IMG/VR virus record: IMGVR_UViG_2690316227_000004
Reading direction: 5' to 3' (one strand)
DNA length: 7,815 bases
Source: a virus
Taxonomy: Duplodnaviria > Heunggongvirae > Uroviricota > Caudoviricetes
Below the pieces are notes generated by a model. It was not told where the DNA came from, made no database searches, and worked only from the letters and a program-made list of their open reading frames with translations. Both the position numbers and the translations under genes were made by a program. This document shows, in pieces, positions 1 through 7,815 of the stretch. Position 1 is the first letter of the stretch, and the number at the start of each line of letters is the position of its first letter.

Positions 1-608
1 ACACCGGCCTGCGCCAGATGACCGGCATAGCTGACATGGCTCATCATCACGCCAATGGAGCCGATACGGGATGTCTGGGTAACCAGCCGTCGGGAGCAGG
101 CCGACGCCAGCAGCATGGCTGCAGAACAGGCCGTGTCATTGCACAGTGCCCAGACCGGCTTCTGCTGACGGAGGCGGTAAATCATGTCAGCGCAGTCAAA
201 CGCGCCGGCGGCCTGCCCGCCCGGACTGTCAATGTCCAGCAGTACGCCCCGCACCTGGCTATCCGCCATTGCCTGCTGAAGACAGGCGACAATGCCGTCA
301 TAGCCTGTCATTCCGGAAAATGGCCGCATACCCCCCAGCCGGTGCACCAGCGTGCCGGTCACCGGCAGTACAGCAATACCGTTCACCACCCGGTAAACAC
401 GGGCCGGTCGTTTACCTCCGGCCATGTACTCGTCCGTTTCAGCCAGCATTCCGGGAGCATCAAGCTGTACCTGCTGCTGTGGTACCGAAAGACTTGCTGC
501 CCCCATCTCGCGCCCGAGCGCGCAAAAGAAAACCCGCGCATAGGCGGGCTCCAGAAGCAGCGGTTCATTGAATGCTGCGGCAATAATGTGTGAAAGATTA
601 CGTCTCAC
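1..608 (-). CDS. C: Head maturation protease / minor capsid protein C (lambda gpC-like), 5' portion only; gene continues past the left edge
   Basis: Minus-strand frame translates from 608 downward as (GTG)RRNLSHIIAAAFNEPLLLEPAYARVFFCALGREMGAAS..., collinear with the lambda gpC N-terminus (..LRNLPHIASMAFNEPLMLEPAYARVFFCALAGQLG.. as recalled). No in-frame ATG exists between the upstream stop (645-647) and the conserved region, so GTG at 606-608 is the proposed start; it overlaps the end of B as in lambda. The + strand ORFs 18..593 and 146..571 are antisense artefacts. Confidence 0.8.
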   Translation of the reverse strand, partial: MRRNLSHIIAAAFNEPLLLEPAYARVFFCALGREMGAASLSVPQQQVQLDAPGMLAETDEYMAGGKRPARVYRVVNGIAVLPVTGTLVHRLGGMRPFSGMTGYDGIVACLQQAMADSQVRGVLLDIDSPGGQAAGAFDCADMIYRLRQQKPVWALCNDTACSAAMLLASACSRRLVTQTSRIGSIGVMMSHVSYAGHLAQAG

Positions 609-2190
609 GGGGTGTTGTCTCCTCTTCCGGCCTGCGACTCTCCGCTATCTGCTGCTGATACGCCTGCGCTATCCACACCGGACGTGAGAGTCCGGCTTTT
701 TGCCGCTCTGCAGATTCCCTGACCTGCTGGCGGAAAATGTCCTGATAATCCTCGCCCATCAGCGCCAGCTCTTTCTCATACGTGCTCAGTCCGGCCTCAA
801 TGCGCATCACCGATTCCTGAACCTCCTTGAGCCCGTCAATGGCCATTCTTCCGGCACCAATCCACTCTGCCCGTGACCAGGCTGATCGCGCCTGATAAAA
901 ATCAAAACGCGCCCGTGGCGGACGGATAATCCCCCGAAGAAGTGCCTCTTCCAGCCAGCAGGAAAACATCTGCGTGGCCAGCCGGGCCGCAATAAATTTT
1001 CGCCGCCCCATAAAATAGCGCCACGACTCATTGGCAGAGGCCCTGGCACTTGAATAACTGACCTTCGAGTAATCACGGGACAACTGTTCGTAGGAAACGC
1101 CAAGACCGGCGGCGATATACCGCAGCAGCGCCTGTTCAAGCGCCGAAAATCCATTGTCTGAATCCTGCGCAGTCTGTAGTTTCAGATCATCCCCGGGGAA
1201 AAGGTGCGGAATTTTGACACCACCCAGCGTCACGTTATTCGTGTCATACCAGCTGGAGAACTTCTCCAGAATATTAATAAGCGGATTATCCTTCTGCCCC
1301 TGCGGCGCACCGGCGATATATTCAAAGGCCTTTTCGGTATCAAGGTCACTTTCAATCGTCGCTGCATACATGGCTTTCACAATGGCCGACTGAAGCTGTG
1401 TTGCCTGCAGGGAATCGAGCATCTTCAGCCGTTCCATGACGCTGTAAAACTGGTTGGCCCCACGGGTCTGCCCGTCCTCCACCGGCTCGAAAATATGCAG
1501 CATGGCCGGACGCCCGGTGGGAAGTTCACGCGGGATCCGTTCCCATCGTCCACTCCCGGAGAACGGAAAATCATCCTCACAGATATGGTACGCAACGGCA
1601 CGGCCATATCGATCGACCTCCACCCCGGCCCGCAGAAAACGGTTCCCCATACCGTGTCCTGGCGTGTCCACCCGTTTCGGACTCACGGCTTTAAAACGCG
1701 TACGGAATAACTGCGTGGTTTCCGTATCCCAGACCGGCTGCACAAAGATTTCGCCGTTAAACGCATGAACGCCAACACCTTCACGGATAAACTCCGTAAA
1801 TGTGCGTTTTCCTTCCACGTCGATCTCGCCAGACATCCCTTCTGCGTATTCCGACCAGGCCGCCTCCACCTCATCGACAAAGCTTTTTGCTGCGGTCTCC
1901 CGCATCCCCAGCCAGCGCCAGTTCGGACGGTAGCTGATCAGAAACATATGCCCGACAATGTGATCCTTATGCAGTGCCACCGCATTGGCCGCTATTCCGT
2001 TATTGCGCACCAGATCATCTGCCCGGGCATTCCCCAGACGCAACGCGGGCAGCAGGGCCGCATCGACACTCTGCGCCGGTGGCAACCACTCCGCCATTTG
2101 CCCGCCAAATCCTGCGCCGCCCCCGTTGTAGCTGAGACTCTCACGAAGCGGAACGCCGTTCACATCAATCAGGACAGGCGTTCGTTTCAT
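598..2190 (-). CDS. B: Portal protein (lambda gpB-like), 530 aa
   Basis: Full ORF with ATG at 2188-2190. Contains GGGAGFGGQ...SVDAALLP...GNARADDLVRNNG..A.NA..LH.DHIVG, matching the lambda gpB N-terminal region. Size and position (after W, before C) fit the lambda head-gene order. Confidence 0.93.
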   Translation of the reverse strand: MKRTPVLIDVNGVPLRESLSYNGGGAGFGGQMAEWLPPAQSVDAALLPALRLGNARADDLVRNNGIAANAVALHKDHIVGHMFLISYRPNWRWLGMRETAAKSFVDEVEAAWSEYAEGMSGEIDVEGKRTFTEFIREGVGVHAFNGEIFVQPVWDTETTQLFRTRFKAVSPKRVDTPGHGMGNRFLRAGVEVDRYGRAVAYHICEDDFPFSGSGRWERIPRELPTGRPAMLHIFEPVEDGQTRGANQFYSVMERLKMLDSLQATQLQSAIVKAMYAATIESDLDTEKAFEYIAGAPQGQKDNPLINILEKFSSWYDTNNVTLGGVKIPHLFPGDDLKLQTAQDSDNGFSALEQALLRYIAAGLGVSYEQLSRDYSKVSYSSARASANESWRYFMGRRKFIAARLATQMFSCWLEEALLRGIIRPPRARFDFYQARSAWSRAEWIGAGRMAIDGLKEVQESVMRIEAGLSTYEKELALMGEDYQDIFRQQVRESAERQKAGLSRPVWIAQAYQQQIAESRRPEEETTPRET

Positions 2191-2393
2191 AACCTCACTC
2201 CCAGCGGACGACGGCGACGTCGGGTTGTCCCCAGTACCGACTCCGCATCATTGATCGCCCGGTTAAGCTCATCCAGAGAAGCCGCCGTATATTCAATTCT
2301 GCGACCATCTTTCTGGACAGACACCACCCGTTTACCGGTTAATAAATCAAGGCGCGCCTGACGCAGCGCCTGCAGTTCAGCGACTGTAACCAT
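2187..2393 (-). CDS. W: Head-tail connector / head completion protein W (lambda gpW-like), 68 aa
   Basis: 68-aa ORF MVTVAELQALRQARLDLLTGKRVVSVQKDGRRIEYTAASL... resembles lambda gpW (..[21 protein letters not shown]..) and has the same length. Its stop TGA overlaps the B start (ATGA), and its start lies within the 3' end of A. Confidence 0.9.
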   Translation of the reverse strand: MVTVAELQALRQARLDLLTGKRVVSVQKDGRRIEYTAASLDELNRAINDAESVLGTTRRRRRPLGVRL

Positions 2394-4305
2394 TCACTCC
2401 TCCGGACAGCTTCGCTGCCAGTTCTTTCAGGGTTGGCCGGGTCGTCTCTTCTTCCCGGGATTTTGCCAGTACAGCCAGATCAAGCTGCCAGCGTTGCACG
2501 GACACACGTAATGCCGCGTAGGCATACACCAGGCAGTCCAGCGCTTCGTTACGCCGCTTTTTGTTATCCCACAGCAGACGCATCTTTCCTTTTTCCCACT
2601 TCTCCACCAGCTCTTCCGCCACCAGTTGCTGCGCCTCTGTCTGCGAAAAAATCTCCGGATCATCAGGAAAACGGATGGCATACGACGTGGCTTCATCCGC
2701 AGGCGAGGGATCGGCTTTCATACGGGCATAGAGAATTTCTTTTGCGGTGTCCGTTCCCACTTCACACAGATACACGCCCCGCTGATTGCGGGTTTTTGGC
2801 ATGGTGATCACCGGCTTGCCATAGACAGATGCGCCTTTTACCGGCAGCACCCGGAAAACACCGTGTTTTTTTGATCTCTGATAAACAATTTCACCATCGA
2901 TCCCCCCGGTGTCCCAGCAGACACGGGAAATAGTCATTTCGGTGCCATCCGCATGGCGGTATTTTTTGTTGATCGCCGCATCCACACGTAACAGCGTCTC
3001 TTCCTCATCAGGACGCCCCATAATGATGATTTTATCCACCAGAAAGGCTTCCTCTCCCGGAGCCCATCCCCAGACATACATCTCAAAACGGTTTCGCTGC
3101 GAGTCAATGCCCGCCGTCAGATAAACCACCCGGGCAGGCACCGCCGCCGTGTAACGCACCACCTTATCCATCAGTACCTGGTGATCGAGTTTTTCGCCCA
3201 CGGCCTCTTCCCAGGTCTCGCCCAGCGTGGTGTTCACAAAGGTTTTCAGGCCGTTGGGATCTTTCAGTGCATCCAGCCAGTCATAGACAATCTGTACCCA
3301 GGTGGTGAACGGACTGTACGCCGTCCAGATATGGAACGTGATGGAGCGCGGCGGCGGAATTTCATCACCCCGGGCGCTGAAAAACGTCAGACCGTCACGG
3401 GTCCACATGCCCGTGTTTTCACAGATCCACCGCCCGTTGCTCTGGTCCAGTTCAGACTGATGGATCACGCAGCCATGATGTTCACAGAGGTAGAAAACAC
3501 TTTCAGGGCTGTCCTTCTCCCATTTAAGCCCAAAAGGCGTGGACTCATCGCCAAATTTCAGATACTGCTCCTCCCCACAGTGCGGGCAGGGCACATAAAA
3601 ACGCATAAAATGCGCCGACTCGTTAGCGGCTTTTTCGATCTGGCAGGTGCCTTTGATTTTAGGCGTCGAGCCGCGAATGGATTTTGGCCACACCGACCCC
3701 TCAATACGCTTATCCCCCAGCAGGGTTGGCGAGCCCTCTTTTTCGACATCCGGCTCGAACGAGGAAAGTTCGTCATAGCAGACCACGTCCACGGATTTTT
3801 CACGGTAGTTTTTGGCGGCAGCGCCGCCCAGGCACCAGAAACCGACGCCCGATGAAAAGCGTTTCAGCGTGAGAGTATTGTCACGATGTTTACGACCCAG
3901 CCATGGGGAAAGGTCTTTCAGGCATGGCACGTTCCGAATCGTCGCCTCCACGTGAGACTTCATAAAATCTTCAGCGGCAGAATCCGTGGGCTGAAAAAGC
4001 AGACTGTTTCGGGATTTATGCTCAATAAAATACCCGACCACCCCCAGCAACATCTTTGTATAGCCAACACGGGCAGATTTAATCAGATTAACAGTGCGGA
4101 TCTGATCATTCCCCATGCTGTTCATGATGGCGATCTGGAATGGCAGCGTTTTCCATTCGCCCTCACCATATGAAGATTCTTTAGGCAGATAATAATTTTG
4201 ATCAGCCCATTCAACTGGCGTCACCGGCAATGCCCTTATCAGGGGCTGTAATGCAGTTGTGACAGCGCTCATCATATTATTCAGTTGTTGCTCTGATATA
4301 TTCAT
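2377..4305 (-). CDS. A: Terminase large subunit (lambda gpA-like), 642 aa from ATG at 4303-4305
   Basis: Long collinear similarity to lambda gpA (VEWAD.NYYLPKES.Y.EG.W.TLPFQ.AIMN.MG.D.IR.VN..KSARVGY.KMLLGV..YFIEHK..., CPHCGEEQYLKFGD, WDTGGID, KRRNEALDC.VYA.AALR). The track ORF starts at a TTG 19 codons upstream (4360-4362); the first ATG (MNISEQQ..) aligns with the lambda gpA N-terminus (MNISNSQ..), so it is taken as the start. Overlaps the end of Nu1 as in lambda. Confidence 0.93.
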   Translation of the reverse strand: MNISEQQLNNMMSAVTTALQPLIRALPVTPVEWADQNYYLPKESSYGEGEWKTLPFQIAIMNSMGNDQIRTVNLIKSARVGYTKMLLGVVGYFIEHKSRNSLLFQPTDSAAEDFMKSHVEATIRNVPCLKDLSPWLGRKHRDNTLTLKRFSSGVGFWCLGGAAAKNYREKSVDVVCYDELSSFEPDVEKEGSPTLLGDKRIEGSVWPKSIRGSTPKIKGTCQIEKAANESAHFMRFYVPCPHCGEEQYLKFGDESTPFGLKWEKDSPESVFYLCEHHGCVIHQSELDQSNGRWICENTGMWTRDGLTFFSARGDEIPPPRSITFHIWTAYSPFTTWVQIVYDWLDALKDPNGLKTFVNTTLGETWEEAVGEKLDHQVLMDKVVRYTAAVPARVVYLTAGIDSQRNRFEMYVWGWAPGEEAFLVDKIIIMGRPDEEETLLRVDAAINKKYRHADGTEMTISRVCWDTGGIDGEIVYQRSKKHGVFRVLPVKGASVYGKPVITMPKTRNQRGVYLCEVGTDTAKEILYARMKADPSPADEATSYAIRFPDDPEIFSQTEAQQLVAEELVEKWEKGKMRLLWDNKKRRNEALDCLVYAYAALRVSVQRWQLDLAVLAKSREEETTRPTLKELAAKLSGGVNGYSR

Positions 4306-4993: not shown

Positions 4994-5015
4994 CCGCGAG
5001 GTCGCCGCCCCGTAA
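4994..5015 (-). other. cosN nicking site; 12-nt cohesive end GGGCGGCGACCT (minus strand) at 4999-5010
   Basis: The reverse complement of 4981-5010 is GGGCGGCGACCTCGCGGGTTTTCGCTATTT, identical to the lambda left cohesive end and its first bases as recalled. The adjacent bases on the other side (reverse complement of 5011-5040, GGGTCCTTTCCGGCGATCCGGGCCGTTACG) closely match the lambda right end (GGGTCCTTTCCGGTGATCCGACAGGTTACG). Confidence 0.9.
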
Positions 5016-5362: not shown

Positions 5363-5620
5363 CTACTTCGCTTTTGCTTCCGCTCGCTTACGCCGGCGCT
5401 CTTCTTTCCTCTCGGCTTTTGCCATGTCCATGAATGCCTGCATGATCGAGTTCCGCATCATGTAGCTAACAAAGTGATGATTGACACAGCCGTTGAGGCG
5501 CAGCTGCTCGCCAAACTCATCCACCGAGGCCAATGCTTCCATCATACCCTTCTCGCCTTTCATGAACTCTGAGAAGTCGCGCCCCGCTCTGGAGGCGCAT
5601 TCAATGACACGATCACTCAT
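5363..5620 (-). CDS. Hypothetical small protein (85 aa) with a highly basic Lys/Arg/Glu-rich C-terminal tail; translationally coupled to the upstream KilA-N-like gene
   Basis: ORF with ATG at 5618-5620 overlapping the upstream gene's stop (ATGA). The C-terminus is AKAERKEERRRKRAEAKAK. No family recognised from memory. The coding call rests on the coupling and on its position in an otherwise gene-dense phage segment. Confidence 0.6.
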   Translation of the reverse strand: MSDRVIECASRAGRDFSEFMKGEKGMMEALASVDEFGEQLRLNGCVNHHFVSYMMRNSIMQAFMDMAKAERKEERRRKRAEAKAK

Positions 5621-6114
5621 CCCGGAAGCCCGGGGATCGAAATCTGCAACTGGTTAGCCAGGGAGTTAATTTCAGCGATCAAACCAGGTTTCGTGTAGCG
5701 CCATGCCGCGAGGCCTTGTCCACAGAAGCTCGCCATGTCTTTTTTCTGATCAAACTCATGACATTTCATGTTGAGCTGCGCACTTAAGCTGTTCCGATGA
5801 TGAAGCTCTCCGGTGAAGTAATCATCGAGGACTTTATAGGCTGCATATTTAAATCCGGGGTTTAGCCATGCTGCGTAATCATAAGCAACGAACTTTCCGC
5901 CATAAGTTCCACCGTGCGCACCGCGTTCCGTAAAAACCACAGATTCGTGGTTTTTCTCCAGCTCAGCCAAGAACTCTTTGGTCTGCTTGTTTCGCAGGTA
6001 GTGGTACGGAGATTCAGATTCACTTTTACCACTGGCTTTCCACATATCAGTGAGGCAGATCATGCCATCTTCACCGATACGGATTGGTTGATTGAAGAGG
6101 GTTAATGATTTCAT
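5617..6114 (-). CDS. KilA-N-like domain protein (putative DNA-binding accessory/moron protein), 165 aa
   Basis: ATG at 6112-6114. The N-terminal region IRIGEDGMICLTDMWKASGK....YLRNKQTKEFLAEL...GG.GTYG..FVAYDYAAWLNPGFKYAAYKVLDDY fits the pattern I recall for KilA-N/APSES-type domains. The assignment is from memory, not a search. Confidence 0.6.
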   Translation of the reverse strand: MKSLTLFNQPIRIGEDGMICLTDMWKASGKSESESPYHYLRNKQTKEFLAELEKNHESVVFTERGAHGGTYGGKFVAYDYAAWLNPGFKYAAYKVLDDYFTGELHHRNSLSAQLNMKCHEFDQKKDMASFCGQGLAAWRYTKPGLIAEINSLANQLQISIPGLPG

Positions 6115-6316: not shown

Positions 6317-6754
6317 TTATTTCAGGCATTGCGTCCTGATGTACTCCTGCAGGTAGTTAACCTGCGCGGTTATCTTGTCGATTCCACCTCGGAGACGGTA
6401 ATAATTGAGTTCAGCATCTGCTGTAAGTCCTGGGCTTTCTCCATCGCCCATGCTGCTGGCTCCGGTCGTTGACTTTGCACAGGTGGCGGAGACTTGCAGG
6501 CGCTTACGCCCAGCAGAAACATCAGCACGGAGACTTTCGATAGTCGCATTAGCATCAGCAAGCTCCTTTGTGTATCTGGCGTCAAGTTCTGCTACATCAC
6601 GTTGCCGCTTCTGCATATCAGCGATGATGGATGTGGCTTTATCGCGCTGCTCTTTGTAGGCGATGGCGTTATCACGGTAATGATTAACAGCCCATGAAAG
6701 GCAGACGATGAGGCAGATGACCAGAACGTAGATAATCGCGGTTACTCTGCTCAT
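6317..6754 (-). CDS. Rz: Spanin inner-membrane subunit (i-spanin, lambda Rz-like), 145 aa from ATG at 6752-6754
   Basis: [39 protein letters not shown]... is nearly identical at the N-terminus to lambda Rz ([39 protein letters not shown]) and shares YTKELADA and a C-terminal QC. The track ORF begins 4 codons upstream at GTG; the ATG overlapping the endolysin stop (ATGA) is preferred. Confidence 0.92.
6370..6555 (-). CDS. Rz1: Spanin outer-membrane lipoprotein subunit (o-spanin, Rz1-like), 61 aa, fully embedded in Rz in the +1 frame
   Basis: [20 protein letters not shown]|[16 protein letters not shown]... has a signal peptide, a lipobox (VSAC) and a Pro-rich mature region, as in lambda Rz1. 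AAGGAG lies 7 nt upstream of ATG 6553-6555. The track ORF start at 6583-6585 is a TTG. Confidence 0.8.
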
Positions 6755-7248
6755 TGTTGCCCCCACAAACAGACTTCACGCTCAATCTCACGGCGAGTCA
6801 TCAGCCCTTTCCATTGCTTACCGCCAGCGTATGTCCAGCGCCGTAGCTGATCACATGCGCCTTTGATATCGCCCTGGTTTATTTTGCGAAGAAGCGTCGA
6901 TGTTCTGAAATTGCCAGCGCCCACGTTGTAAACGAACGAGTAAAGAGCGCCGCGCGTTGTTTCCGGTATATCGACTTTGATGTACGGGTTTATTTGTCTG
7001 GCGACCGTGGCAAGGTCTTTATTCAGGAGGGCTTTGCATTCTGCTTCGGTATACGTTTTACCGGGCATGATGTCTTTTCCGGTGTGTCCATGACATACAG
7101 TCCATACGCCAACGATATCTTCGTATGGTATGTAGCTGACACCTTCCAGGCCATCGTCACCACTCGGACCAGTGATGAGCACAGACGCTATGGCAACAGC
7201 CCCACCACCAATAGCAGCAGCAACGGCTTTTCGTAATGATGGAGGCAT
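6751..7248 (-). CDS. R: SAR (signal-anchor-release) endolysin, T4-lysozyme-type muramidase (phage 21 R21-like), 165 aa
   Basis: The N-terminus [30 protein letters not shown] is a Gly/Ala-rich weakly hydrophobic SAR domain. It is followed by an E-x8-D-x5-T catalytic arrangement ([17 protein letters not shown]). The sequence is near-identical to the phage 21 endolysin as I recall it. The start ATG overlaps the holin stop (TAATG). Confidence 0.93.
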
Positions 7249-7454
7249 TATTCACCTCTCGCAGCCTTGCGCTTATCTTCTTTAATCTTGAAATAAAGGT
7301 TTGTCAGATACGTCAGCAGGCCAAACAGCAGACTCCCCAGCACACCTATTGCCACCCACTGGGACGGAGAGACTTTGTCCAGCAGCTGCAGTAACCAGTA
7401 TCCCGTCCCCACCGCTGACGTGGTGTATGACACACCCGTTGTGATTTTTTCCAT
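7248..7454 (-). CDS. S: Class II holin / pinholin (phage 21 S21-68-like), 68 aa
   Basis: [68 protein letters not shown] has two predicted TMDs and a charged C-terminus, closely resembling S21-68 ([68 protein letters not shown] as recalled). GGAGA lies upstream of the ATG. It sits immediately upstream of the SAR endolysin. Confidence 0.92.
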
Positions 7455-7499
7455 CTGATGTATGTCTCCGTCACCGCCGACAGAAAATGAAAGTAAAGG

Positions 7500-7534
7500 A
7501 AAACAAAAAGCCGCCAGTGTCGCCCACTGACGGC
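7500..7534 (-). terminator. Strong rho-independent terminator 45 nt upstream of the holin ATG (tR'-like terminator of the late leader)
   Basis: Minus-strand RNA GCCGUCAGUG-GGCGA-CACUGGCGGC (10-bp stem with one G-U pair, 5-nt loop) followed by UUUUUGUUUU. In lambdoid phages the late promoter pR' is followed by a leader ending in tR', which Q-modified polymerase reads through. Confidence 0.7.
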
Positions 7535-7612
7535 CAACGCCGGGAGCCGTGATTATGGCATTCAGGCTCTGCTAAAAATGCCAGATAACATTCCGGCTCC
7601 CCCCTGATTCAG

Positions 7613-7639
7613 GTTATAAATGACACAATATCTTGACAA
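7613..7639 (-). promoter_or_regulatory. Candidate late promoter (pR'-like) reading toward the lysis genes
   Basis: Minus strand TTGTCA (7634-7639) followed by either TATAAC (15-bp spacer) or TAACCT (17-bp spacer), about 100 nt upstream of the tR'-like terminator. Hexamers and spacing are imperfect; this is a positional inference. Confidence 0.3.
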
Positions 7640-7652
7640 CACCCATCACTGT

Positions 7653-7681
7653 CTGTCAGAAAATGTACTGCCAGATATAAG
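7653..7681 (+). promoter_or_regulatory. Candidate sigma70-type promoter on the + strand (CTGTCA-17 bp-TATAAG) facing the 7710-7752 terminator
   Basis: -35-like CTGTCA at 7653-7658, a 17-bp spacer, and -10-like TATAAG at 7676-7681. It would start a transcript near 7688-7690 that ends at the + strand terminator about 60 nt downstream. Confidence 0.3.
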
Positions 7682-7707
7682 TATCATGTGAAACCCAACT
7701 ATCCTTC

Positions 7708-7815
7708 TTAGCCAGTACTTCTCCGAGGAAAGTCAGTACTGGCTGTTTTTTTCCTTAATAAAGCATCTGTAACTGAAACAATCCGCATATTGATAATATA
7801 TTGACAGGCATCATT
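7708..7815 (-). CDS. 3' end of an ORF entering from the right edge (35 codons then TAA); possibly the late antiterminator Q gene
   Basis: The minus frame is open from the window edge to TAA at 7708-7710 (..NDACQYIINMRIVSVTDALLRKKTASTDFPRRSTG*). In lambdoid phages Q sits immediately upstream of pR' and the lysis genes. I do not recognise the peptide, so the call is positional only. Confidence 0.3.
   Translation of the reverse strand, partial: NDACQYIINMRIVSVTDALLRKKTASTDFPRRSTG
7710..7752 (+). terminator. Strong intrinsic terminator on the + strand (perfect 10-bp stem, U7 tail)
   Basis: agccagtact (7710-7719) pairs perfectly with agtactggct (7735-7744) around a 15-nt loop, followed by ttttttt (7746-7752). 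On the minus strand the same hairpin is preceded, not followed, by the homopolymer run, so it is oriented for + strand termination. Confidence 0.55.

What the first reader, a model, noticed from the sequence alone, without database searches (positions are those of the whole stretch)
6751..7454. Pinholin plus SAR-endolysin lysis pair with overlapping stop/start (TAATG)
The endolysin N-terminus ([18 protein letters not shown]) is a Gly/Ala-rich SAR domain rather than a cleavable signal or a cytoplasmic enzyme. Such endolysins are exported by the Sec system, tethered inactive in the membrane, and released when a pinholin depolarises it. The E-x8-D-x5-T catalytic spacing matches T4-lysozyme-type muramidases. 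This is well-described biology, but it places the phage firmly in the phage 21 lysis class.
Basis: partly seen in the sequence, partly recalled or inferred. Interest (0 to 1): 0.35.

Follow-up and report, generated by a model that had tools for sequence, protein, structure and literature searches.

The report
Phage-21-type pinholin and SAR endolysin genes
This is an ordinary, already well-studied lysis gene pair of an E. coli lambda-like prophage: a small membrane "pinhole" protein and a membrane-tethered lysozyme, followed by the two spanin genes that finish lysis.

Summary
On the minus strand, a 68-aa class II holin (7454..7248) ends in TAATG, where its stop overlaps the start of a 165-aa lysozyme (7248..6751). 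The lysozyme has an N-terminal R6-K7 followed by [18 protein letters not shown] (56% Gly+Ala) and the triad E35-x8-D44-x5-T50.

The lysozyme is 158/165 identical to phage 21 R and about 97% identical over its full length to the solved structures of R21 (3hde) and E. coli DLP12 RrrD (4zpu). The holin is 100% identical to phage 434 S, which is annotated as a pinholin. It is 75% identical to phage 21 S68, with TMD2 and its G-x3-S-x3-G zipper conserved.

The cassette continues with an embedded Rz/Rz1 spanin pair, whose start is coupled to the lysozyme stop by ATGA.

These exact proteins occur on 845 or more public contigs each. Published surveys report this pair in 99% of the Stx phage genomes they analysed.

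One small departure from phage 21 is that this holin allele has no dual start. ATA stands where relatives have ATG, so no S71-type antiholin is encoded.

The parts
7248..7454 (-). S, a 68-aa class II holin (pinholin), single ATG start at 7454..7452
   Evidence: ORF. Pfam PF04971 E=1.2e-32. PHROG holin families. 100% identical to phage 434 S and 51/68 to phage 21 S68. The exact sequence occurs on 982 contigs.
7380..7445 (-). S TMD1 (residues 4-25, [22 protein letters not shown]): a weakly hydrophobic, SAR-like helix
   Evidence: Summed Hessa dGapp is +7.2 and 50% of residues are G/A/S/T. It corresponds to the S21-68 TMD1 that exits the membrane.
7290..7358 (-). S TMD2 (residues 33-55, [23 protein letters not shown]) with the G37-x3-S41-x3-G45 zipper, followed by the basic C-terminal tail [13 protein letters not shown]
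   Evidence: 19/23 residues are identical to S21 TMD2 and the zipper residues are identical. The glycine zipper of S21 TMD2 is cited in PMC9025707.
7461..7463 (-). ATA codon, three codons upstream and in frame with the S start, at the position where relatives carry the first ATG of a dual start
   Evidence: The window reads GGAGAC ATA CAT CAG ATG. Phage Evi reads ATG TAC CAG ATG. Phages 21 and 434B read ATG AAA TCC ATG, i.e. MKSM. In an IMG/VR sample there were 97 ATG-type and 14 ATA-type loci.
7466..7469 (-). Probable Shine-Dalgarno GGAG for S, 11 nt before the ATG, inside a predicted 9-bp hairpin
   Evidence: Sequence. An RBS is annotated at the equivalent place in phage 434. RNA fold of 7545..7420. 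The hairpin's role is inferred only.
7509..7535 (-). Intrinsic-terminator-like hairpin (11 bp, then a T-run) just upstream of S
   Evidence: Terminator scan. Annotated as a terminator at the equivalent place in phage 434. Late transcription from pR' under Q antitermination would read through it. A Q gene lies about 3.8 kb upstream in the best-matching prophage.
7246..7250 (-). TAATG: S stop (7250..7248) overlapping R start (7248..7246), with a GAGGTG Shine-Dalgarno inside the S 3' end
   Evidence: Junction sequence GCGAGAGGTGAATAATGCCT. The junction is the same in phage 21.
6751..7248 (-). R, a 165-aa SAR endolysin (GH24 / T4-lysozyme-type muramidase)
   Evidence: Pfam PF00959 E=8e-46. PDB 4zpu RrrD and 3hde R21, E about 1e-108 over the full length. 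158/165 identical to phage 21 R. The exact sequence occurs on 845 contigs and is named 'lysozyme RrrD'.
7174..7227 (-). SAR domain codons (residues 8-25, [18 protein letters not shown]), preceded by R6-K7
   Evidence: 56% Gly+Ala and summed Hessa dGapp of +0.55, against -2.99 for the Rz TMD. It contains no Cys; the Cys residues are at 52, 71, 132 and 160. Residues 1-30 are identical to R21 except I18V.
7099..7146 (-). Catalytic triad codons E35 (7146..7144), D44 (7119..7117) and T50 (7101..7099)
   Evidence: Direct count on the translation. The E-X8-D-X5-T motif is as stated in PMC9239132.
6751..6754 (-). ATGA: Rz start (6754..6752) overlapping R stop (6753..6751)
   Evidence: Junction GGGGGCAACAATGAGCAG. 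Phage 21 has the same arrangement.
6317..6754 (-). Rz i-spanin, 145 aa, with an N-terminal TMD (residues 5-23)
   Evidence: Pfam PF03245 E=1e-34. PHROG 13 Rz-like spanin E=3e-71. TMD summed dGapp is -2.99.
6370..6555 (-). Rz1 o-spanin, embedded in the +1 frame of Rz. It has a lipobox LLGVSA|C, and the mature 42-aa lipoprotein begins CKSPPP. The start may be the ATG at 6555 or the ATG at 6549.
   Evidence: Pfam PF06085 E=4e-20. PHROG 3198. Codon table and lipobox position.

Best explanation
This is the late-operon lysis cassette of a lambdoid E. coli prophage, of the phage 21 / 434 / DLP12 type. It consists of S (pinholin), R (SAR endolysin) and the embedded spanin pair Rz/Rz1, all on the minus strand. 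The genes are translationally coupled by TAATG and ATGA overlaps. How it most likely works is inferred from phage 21 and was not tested here. R is exported by Sec and stays tethered and inactive in the inner membrane by its uncleaved, weakly hydrophobic Gly/Ala-rich N-terminal helix. S accumulates in the same membrane with two TMDs. Its weakly hydrophobic TMD1 leaves the bilayer, and TMD2 helices then assemble through the G-x3-S-x3-G face into about 2-nm heptameric pinholes that collapse the proton motive force. Depolarisation releases the SAR helix, and R refolds into an active muramidase that uses E35/D44/T50. This follows the R21 refolding mode, not the P1 Lyz disulfide mode, because the SAR helix has no Cys. 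Once the murein is degraded, the Rz-Rz1 complex disrupts the outer membrane. This allele has only one start codon, so it should make only the active 68-aa pinholin and no S71-type antiholin.
For: Family assignments are all far above cut-off: PF04971, PF00959, PF03245 and PF06085, plus PHROG lysis families. R matches the solved structures 4zpu (RrrD) and 3hde (R21) at E about 1e-108 over residues 1-165, and matches the SAR-less construct 3hdf over residues 27-165. R is 158/165 identical to phage 21 R and S is 51/68 identical to S21-68, with TMD2 and the zipper conserved and the junctions identical. S is 100% identical to phage 434 S, annotated as a pinholin, and R is 160/165 identical to the 434 SAR endolysin. 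Hydropathy fits the model: the R SAR helix is 56% Gly+Ala with marginal dGapp of +0.55, S TMD1 is +7.2, and the bona fide Rz TMD is -2.99. The SAR domain has no Cys. The context is a complete lambdoid prophage with a Q antiterminator upstream, and with cos, terminase, portal, capsid and tail genes downstream. The mechanism itself comes from the literature: PMC9239132, PMC6116005, PMC9636201, bioRxiv 10.1101/2021.04.20.440580 and PMC7278021. Prevalence in Stx phages is documented in PMC8136144 and PMC10462455.
Against: Nothing contradicts this reading, but three limits apply. First, function was not tested here; pinhole size, non-cleavage of the SAR helix and PMF-dependent release are all transferred from phage 21 by homology. 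S TMD1 is the least conserved part, and 14 of the 17 S differences from S21-68 lie in residues 1-34, that is TMD1 and its flanks. Second, R carries N31D and K43E, the latter next to catalytic D44, relative to R21, RrrD and 434 R, plus L62P and K68E relative to R21 and RrrD. Each of these differences is shared with other natural alleles (and the 434 R). Third, the canonical S71/S68 dual start is absent, so the timing control described for phage 21 cannot apply unchanged.
Confidence: 0.95

Rival explanations
1. The N-terminus of R is an ordinary Sec signal peptide, cleaved by signal peptidase I (for example after A19-I20-A21), so that R is a constitutively secreted soluble lysozyme.
For: The sequence has a basic n-region (R6, K7), a hydrophobic stretch and an AxA-like motif (and direct reading). 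No signal-peptide predictor was available, so this could not be scored.
Against: Residues 1-30 are identical to R21 except I18V. The R21 and P1 Lyz signals are reported not to be removed after Sec transport (PMC6116005). The solved structure 3hde aligns from residue 1 to 165. A constitutively active secreted lysozyme would kill the cell before assembly and would make the tightly coupled holin pointless.
Confidence: 0.02
2. S is a canonical large-hole class II holin and not a pinholin, and merely happens to sit next to a SAR endolysin, as P1 LydA does.
For: S is only 75% identical to S21-68, and TMD1 differs at many positions. Some SAR-endolysin phages do use canonical holins (PMC6116005).
Against: The pore-lining TMD2 is 19/23 identical to that of S21, including the glycine-zipper residues. 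S belongs to the same Pfam family at 112 bits. The identical protein in phage 434 is annotated as a pinholin by a specialist lysis group. The Stx-phage homologues are classed in the P21 holin S family as pinholins (PMC10462455).
Confidence: 0.03
3. The cassette is a silent relic of a defective prophage and does not work as a lysis system in its present host, although its genes are intact (compare DLP12 essD-rrrD-rzpD in E. coli K-12).
For: Many E. coli genomes carry several such cassettes: a median of 3 and up to 18 matching places per genome. Expression was not examined.
Against: All four reading frames are intact with preserved coupling overlaps. The best-matching genome shows a full set of Q, nanS-p, lysis, cos, terminase, portal, protease, capsid and tail genes around it. 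An exact lambda-type cosN lies in the window. This would in any case be a statement about the prophage, not about what the genes encode.
Confidence: 0.1

Closest known systems
Phage 21 S21 (S68/S71) pinholin and R21 SAR endolysin (OL657228; PDB 3hde/3hdf)
   Same: The gene order is the same (S-R-Rz/Rz1), as are the TAATG and ATGA overlaps. R is 158/165 identical, with the same SAR helix (I18V only) and the same E35/D44/T50. S is 51/68 identical, with conserved TMD2, glycine zipper, acidic-then-Lys residues at positions 2-3 and a basic C-terminal tail.
   Different: There is no MKSM dual start; ATA CAT CAG precedes the only ATG. TMD1 is richer in Thr/Ser and poorer in Gly/Ala. R has N31D, K43E, L62P, K68E, M98T and I159V. 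The spanins are a different allele (Rz 83/154, Rz1 22/70). In place of the pR'-tRNA region of phage 21, a nanS-p esterase gene lies upstream.
Phage 434 S / R (OL657226), annotated 'holin class II; pinholin' and 'SAR endolysin glycosyl hydrolase'
   Same: S is 68/68 identical. The upstream non-coding region with its terminators is shared, with 94.5% DNA identity over window 6638-7815. R is 160/165 identical. S has a single start.
   Different: R has five substitutions (P2S, S29G, D31N, E43K, T139A). The Rz 3' part and the genes downstream differ: 434 carries a bor/iss-like gene where this window has KilA-N.
E. coli K-12 DLP12 prophage EssD / RrrD (PDB 4zpu) and the 434B hybrid
   Same: R is 160/165 identical to the RrrD-type protein, and RefSeq names the window protein 'lysozyme RrrD'. 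S is 57/68 identical to the S68 form.
   Different: The DLP12/434B S has the MKSM dual start, annotated as antiholin plus holin; the window S does not.
Stx-phage (933W / H-19B type) S pinholins
   Same: They fall in the same 90% protein cluster and are identical or nearly so from Met-Glu-Lys onward. The window S is 100% identical to S of several Stx1a/Stx2a phages.
   Different: The commonest allele is 71 aa with a genuine ATG TAC CAG ATG (MYQM) dual start. In most sampled loci it is followed by another small gene, not by an overlapping R21-type endolysin: 88 of 91 in the sample. Their extension lacks a basic residue.
Phage P1 Lyz (PDB 1xjt/1xju), the first SAR endolysin
   Same: It is a GH24 lysozyme with an uncleaved, releasable N-terminal SAR helix. 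It is a distant hit to the window R at E about 3e-9.
   Different: Per the literature, P1 Lyz is activated by disulfide isomerisation that involves a Cys in its SAR domain. The window R has no Cys before residue 52, so it should follow the R21 refolding mode.
Lambda S105/S107 holin and R transglycosylase
   Same: The late-operon position and gene order S-R-Rz/Rz1 are the same. The cosN and the Nu1/A/W/B packaging genes nearby are lambda-type.
   Different: Lambda S is a three-TMD class I large-hole holin, and lambda R is a cytoplasmic transglycosylase with no export signal (PMC9636201).

Membership tests
Pinholin of the P21 holin S family (class II holin; Pfam PF04971) | Sequence membership in the family model above the curated threshold | tested here: met
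   PF04971 scores 112.1 bits against a cut-off of 26, E=1.2e-32, covering residues 2-64. S is 51/68 identical to S21-68.
Pinholin of the P21 holin S family (class II holin; Pfam PF04971) | A small protein with two TMDs, a short N-terminus and a basic cytoplasmic C-terminal tail (N-in/C-in before activation) | tested here: met
   There are two hydrophobic segments, residues 4-25 and 33-55. The tail [13 protein letters not shown] has a net charge of +3. Topology itself is predicted, not measured.
Pinholin of the P21 holin S family (class II holin; Pfam PF04971) | TMD1 is weakly hydrophobic (SAR-like) and able to leave the bilayer | tested here: inconclusive
   The composition fits: 50% G/A/S/T and summed dGapp of +7.2, much weaker than TMD2 (+2.2) or the Rz TMD (-3.0). 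Actual externalisation can only be shown experimentally.
Pinholin of the P21 holin S family (class II holin; Pfam PF04971) | Glycine-zipper face (G-x3-S-x3-G) in the pore-forming TMD2 | tested here: met
   G37, S41 and G45 lie in GVLGSLLFG, aligned to GVLGSLVLG of S21. The motif's role is cited in PMC9025707. The S21 position numbers G40/S44/G48 are from my own recollection.
Pinholin of the P21 holin S family (class II holin; Pfam PF04971) | Forms about 2-nm holes that depolarise the membrane but do not pass a cytoplasmic endolysin | not testable with these tools
   This needs complementation with lambda R versus R21, or cysteine-accessibility or EM assays (PMC9636201).
S21-type dual-start holin/antiholin gene | Two in-frame start codons, three codons apart, the longer product carrying an extra basic residue (MKSM...) | tested here: not met
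   The only Met codon is the start. The upstream in-frame codons are ATA CAT CAG. Phages 21 and 434B have ATG AAA TCC ATG. This is a feature of the S21 gene, not a requirement for being a pinholin.
SAR endolysin, R21 type (GH24 muramidase; Pfam PF00959) | Lysozyme-family catalytic domain | tested here: met
   PF00959 scores 155.9 bits against a cut-off of 22.3. The PDB hits 4zpu and 3hde score E about 1e-108.
SAR endolysin, R21 type (GH24 muramidase; Pfam PF00959) | Catalytic triad E-x8-D-x5-T | tested here: met
   E35, D44 and T50 by direct count. The motif is as defined in PMC9239132.
SAR endolysin, R21 type (GH24 muramidase; Pfam PF00959) | One to three N-terminal basic residues followed by a weakly hydrophobic TMD rich in Gly/Ala/Ser/Thr | tested here: met
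   R6 and K7 precede 18 residues with 56% Gly+Ala and summed dGapp of +0.55. The criteria are as described in PMC9239132.
SAR endolysin, R21 type (GH24 muramidase; Pfam PF00959) | The signal is not cleaved, and the enzyme is released from the membrane on depolarisation or by a pinholin | not testable with these tools
   This is inferred from near-identity of residues 1-30 to R21 and from the literature on R21 (PMC6116005). PMC9239132 calls release by a pinholin the definitive test.
SAR endolysin, R21 type (GH24 muramidase; Pfam PF00959) | No Cys in the SAR helix (this separates R21-type refolding control from P1 Lyz-type disulfide control) | tested here: met
   The only Cys residues are at 52, 71, 132 and 160.
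Two-component embedded spanin (Rz/Rz1) | An i-spanin with an N-terminal TMD, plus an o-spanin lipoprotein gene wholly embedded in its +1 frame | tested here: met
   PF03245 and PF06085 both hit. Rz1 (6555..6370) lies inside Rz (6754..6317), offset by 199 nt, which is the +1 frame. The lipobox LLGVSA|C is present.

The most novel reading that the evidence does not exclude
The ATA-for-ATG allele seen here may be a naturally antiholin-less pinholin. On this reading, its lysis timing is set only by S68 accumulation, perhaps tuned by the predicted hairpin that buries the GGAG Shine-Dalgarno and by the long 11-nt spacing. Its preferential linkage to the overlapping R21-type endolysin (8 of 14 loci, against 3 of 91 for the ATG allele) would then reflect co-adaptation of holin timing and endolysin type. 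It would be mildly surprising if the ATA codon were used as a weak near-cognate start that yields a low-level 71-aa regulator.
Probability: 0.2. Interest if true: 0.25.

Novelty: already known. Interest (0 to 1): 0.1.

Why it matters
It matters little beyond correct annotation. The pinholin/SAR-endolysin pathway is a textbook alternative to lambda-type lysis. These exact proteins are annotated on hundreds of E. coli genomes and in reference phages (434 and Stx phages), and near-identical proteins have crystal structures. The only point a lysis specialist might note is the natural variation at the holin start. Phage 21 and DLP12 have MKSM, most 933W-type alleles have MYQM with no basic residue, and this allele has a single start. 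That variation offers ready-made natural variants for asking how much the antiholin form contributes to lysis timing.

Tried and rejected
An Rfam scan of the whole window at E<=1 found nothing relevant, only a sub-threshold DicF match inside the terminase gene. No tRNA or known sRNA lies upstream of S, unlike phage 21.

NCBIfam gave no above-cut-off equivalog for any of the four lysis proteins. The only matches were sub-threshold lysozyme-domain hits to BgtA and SpmX.

The sigma-70 scan found no convincing promoter directly upstream of S on the minus strand. That fits transcription from a distal pR'.

I tried to read the primary papers (Sun 2009, Park 2006, Pang 2009, Pang 2010, Pang 2013, Kuty 2010, Ahammad 2019) by PMC or PubMed id. 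None is held. The mechanism therefore rests on reviews and secondary papers, and a few details (S21 residue numbering, the E35 repositioning in R21) rest on my own knowledge.

A literature search for a discussion of dual starts in Stx-phage pinholins found nothing.

I did not run structure prediction, fold search or the large homology searches. Identity of 96-97% to solved full-length structures already answers the question.

I considered that the 71-aa 'MHQM' and 'MHRM' database entries show a dual start in this allele. They are more likely gene calls from the ATA codon (ATA CAT CAG/CGG), because 120 of 122 loci matched in the first scan read ATA CAT CAG and none had ATG at that position. The MYQM form is genuine, reading ATG TAC CAG.
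Full report
**Observation**

The two genes lie on the minus strand. The ORF list and the sequence show a 68-aa ORF at 7454..7248 and a 165-aa ORF at 7248..6751. These are exactly the finding's coordinates.

The junction reads ...GGT GAA TAATG CCT.... The holin stop TAA (7250..7248) and the endolysin start ATG (7248..7246) share one base. A GAGGTG Shine-Dalgarno sits inside the end of S.

The endolysin begins [30 protein letters not shown].

It is not chance. Pfam gives PF04971 'Bacteriophage P21 holin S' at 112 bits (cut-off 26) and PF00959 'Phage lysozyme' at 156 bits (cut-off 22). PHROGs places both proteins in lysis families.

**What surrounds it**

The cassette does not stop at 6751. The endolysin stop overlaps the start of a 145-aa Rz i-spanin as ATGA (6754..6751). 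That gene runs 6754..6317 and hits PF03245.

Embedded in its +1 frame is an Rz1 o-spanin at about 6555..6370. It hits PF06085 and has the lipobox LLGVSA|C. The unit is thus a complete S-R-Rz/Rz1 lysis cassette.

The window as a whole is 99% identical to a lambdoid prophage in E. coli strain Res13-Lact-PEA14-20. Parts of it match 5296 of 5426 complete E. coli genomes.

In that prophage the gene order is Q antiterminator, two small genes, nanS-p esterase, S, R, Rz/Rz1, KilA-N gene, an 85-aa gene, Nu1, A, W, portal, protease, capsid and tail.

An exact lambda cosN (GGGCGGCGACCT) lies at 5010..4999. A terminator-like hairpin (7535..7509) sits just upstream of S and is annotated as a terminator in phage 434. 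S-R-Rz is therefore expected to be read from the distal late promoter under Q antitermination. That last step is inference.

**Identity of the endolysin**

Against PDB sequences, R matches E. coli DLP12 RrrD (4zpu) and phage 21 R (3hde) at E about 1e-108 over residues 1-165. It matches the SAR-less construct 3hdf over residues 27-165.

Against the phage 21 genome record it is 158/165 identical. Residues 1-30 differ only by I18V.

The SAR stretch has these properties:
- It is 56% Gly+Ala.
- Its simple summed Hessa free energy is about +0.5, against -3.0 for the ordinary Rz membrane anchor.
- It follows two basic residues, R6 and K7.
- It has no Cys; the Cys residues are at 52, 71, 132 and 160.

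These are the published criteria for a SAR domain (PMC9239132). The lack of Cys places the enzyme with R21, which is controlled by refolding, and not with P1 Lyz, which is controlled by disulfide isomerisation.

The differences from R21 include N31D, and K43E next to catalytic D44. Both recur in many natural alleles. The exact protein occurs on 845 contigs, named 'lysozyme RrrD'.

**Identity of the holin**

S is 100% identical to S of phage 434, which that record annotates as 'pinholin; holin class II'. It is also identical to S of several Stx1a/Stx2a phages.

It is 57/68 identical to the DLP12/434B S68 form and 51/68 identical to S21-68. My recalled S21-71 sequence was verified as a 100% match to the phage 21 record.

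Conservation is uneven:
- TMD2 (residues 33-55) is 19/23 identical, with the G-x3-S-x3-G face intact (G37, S41, G45).
- The acidic-then-Lys N-terminus (M-E-K against M-D-K) and the basic C-terminal tail are kept.
- TMD1 has drifted towards Ser/Thr but remains very weakly hydrophobic.

Published mutagenesis shows that K3 delays TMD1 exit and the acidic residue at position 2 promotes it, and that TMD2 forms the pore (bioRxiv 10.1101/2021.04.20.440580; PMC7278021; PMC9636201).

**The one departure from phage 21**

S21 and DLP12 S begin MKSM, which gives the S71 antiholin and the S68 holin. The window S has a single Met.

The in-frame codons before it are ATA CAT CAG (7463..7455). Close relatives in the same 90% cluster include 71-aa forms. 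Phage Evi shows a genuine ATG TAC CAG ATG, i.e. MYQM.

All but two of 122 loci matched by a narrower pattern were ATA CAT CAG.

The ATA allele was more often fused by TAATG to an R21-type endolysin (8 of 14) than the ATG allele was (3 of 91). In most sampled loci the ATG allele is followed by another small gene.

So this allele should make only the active 68-aa product. That is an inference. A predicted hairpin buries the GGAG Shine-Dalgarno 11 nt upstream, but I did not test whether that matters.

**Mechanism**

The shown parts are gene structure, family membership, motif conservation and composition.

The rest is inferred from phage 21 through 75-96% identity:
- R is exported by Sec and stays tethered and inactive.
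- S accumulates, its TMD1 leaves the membrane, and TMD2 builds about 2-nm heptameric pinholes.
- Loss of proton motive force releases and activates R.
- The spanins then disrupt the outer membrane (PMC9636201; PMC6116005; PMC12642591).

**Rivals**

1. A cleavable signal peptide cannot be excluded by prediction here. An AxA-like motif (A19-I20-A21) might even attract a predictor. But the R21 signal is reported as uncleaved, and the solved full-length structure includes residues 1-165.

2. A large-hole holin is unlikely, given the conserved TMD2.

3. Silence of the prophage is possible. However, it concerns expression and not what the genes encode.

**Comparison and novelty**

This is the same system as phage 21 S/R, phage 434 S/R and DLP12 EssD/RrrD. 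Surveys report a predicted SAR endolysin plus pinholin in 99% of Stx phages (PMC8136144). They also place Stx2a-phage S proteins in the P21 holin S family (PMC10462455).

This is typical lambdoid mosaicism.

**Verdict**

The system is already known, and interest is about 0.1.

Noticed in passing
window 6317-6754 (-) and 6370-6555 (-): An Rz/Rz1 spanin pair lies directly downstream, coupled to R by ATGA. The allele is far from phage 21's (Rz 83/154, Rz1 22/70 identical). The mature Rz1 ([14 protein letters not shown]...) has no Cys other than the lipidated one, whereas Rz has periplasmic Cys92 and Cys143. Any disulfide-linked dimerisation would therefore have to rest on Rz alone.
   Followed up: partly
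window 4999-5010 (-): There is an exact lambda cosN, GGGCGGCGACCT, followed by CGCGGGTTTTCGCTATTTATGA as at the lambda left end. It lies in the roughly 470-bp non-coding gap between the 85-aa gene and Nu1. The virion chromosome ends would therefore fall inside this window.
   Followed up: partly
window 7455-7815, both strands: The long non-coding leader of S contains a minus-strand terminator (7535..7509), a second weaker one (7597..7580), and a plus-strand hairpin plus T-run (about 7707-7752) that is annotated as a terminator in phage 434. No Rfam family, tRNA or ORF explains a plus-strand transcript there.
   Followed up: partly
window 7455-7457 and about 6638 (mosaic breakpoints): Homology to Stx phages (97-99.6%) stops exactly at the S start codon. 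Homology to phage 434 covers the upstream leader, S and R, but ends inside Rz. These are recombination joints at gene boundaries, typical of lambdoid phages.
   Followed up: partly
IMG/VR loci L004-L211 (scans): The same pinholin is followed in many prophages not by R but by an inserted small gene (for example MKKKYELVVKGINNYPDK..., 114-250 aa) before the endolysin. Only about a third of the ATA-allele loci have the TAATG fusion to an R21-type endolysin.
   Followed up: partly
window 5617-6114 (-) and 5363-5620 (-): Between the spanins and cos sit a KilA-N + ORF11CD3 (Bro/Rha-like) gene and an overlapping 85-aa gene of unknown function (PHROG 875). Phages 21 and 434 carry bor/iss-like and other genes at this position.
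   Followed up: no
window 18-593 (+), 146-571 (+), 1765-2361 (+), 3181-3855 (+): There are several long plus-strand ORFs (141-224 aa) antisense to the protease, portal and terminase genes. They are most likely shadow ORFs of the minus-strand genes and not real genes.
   Followed up: no
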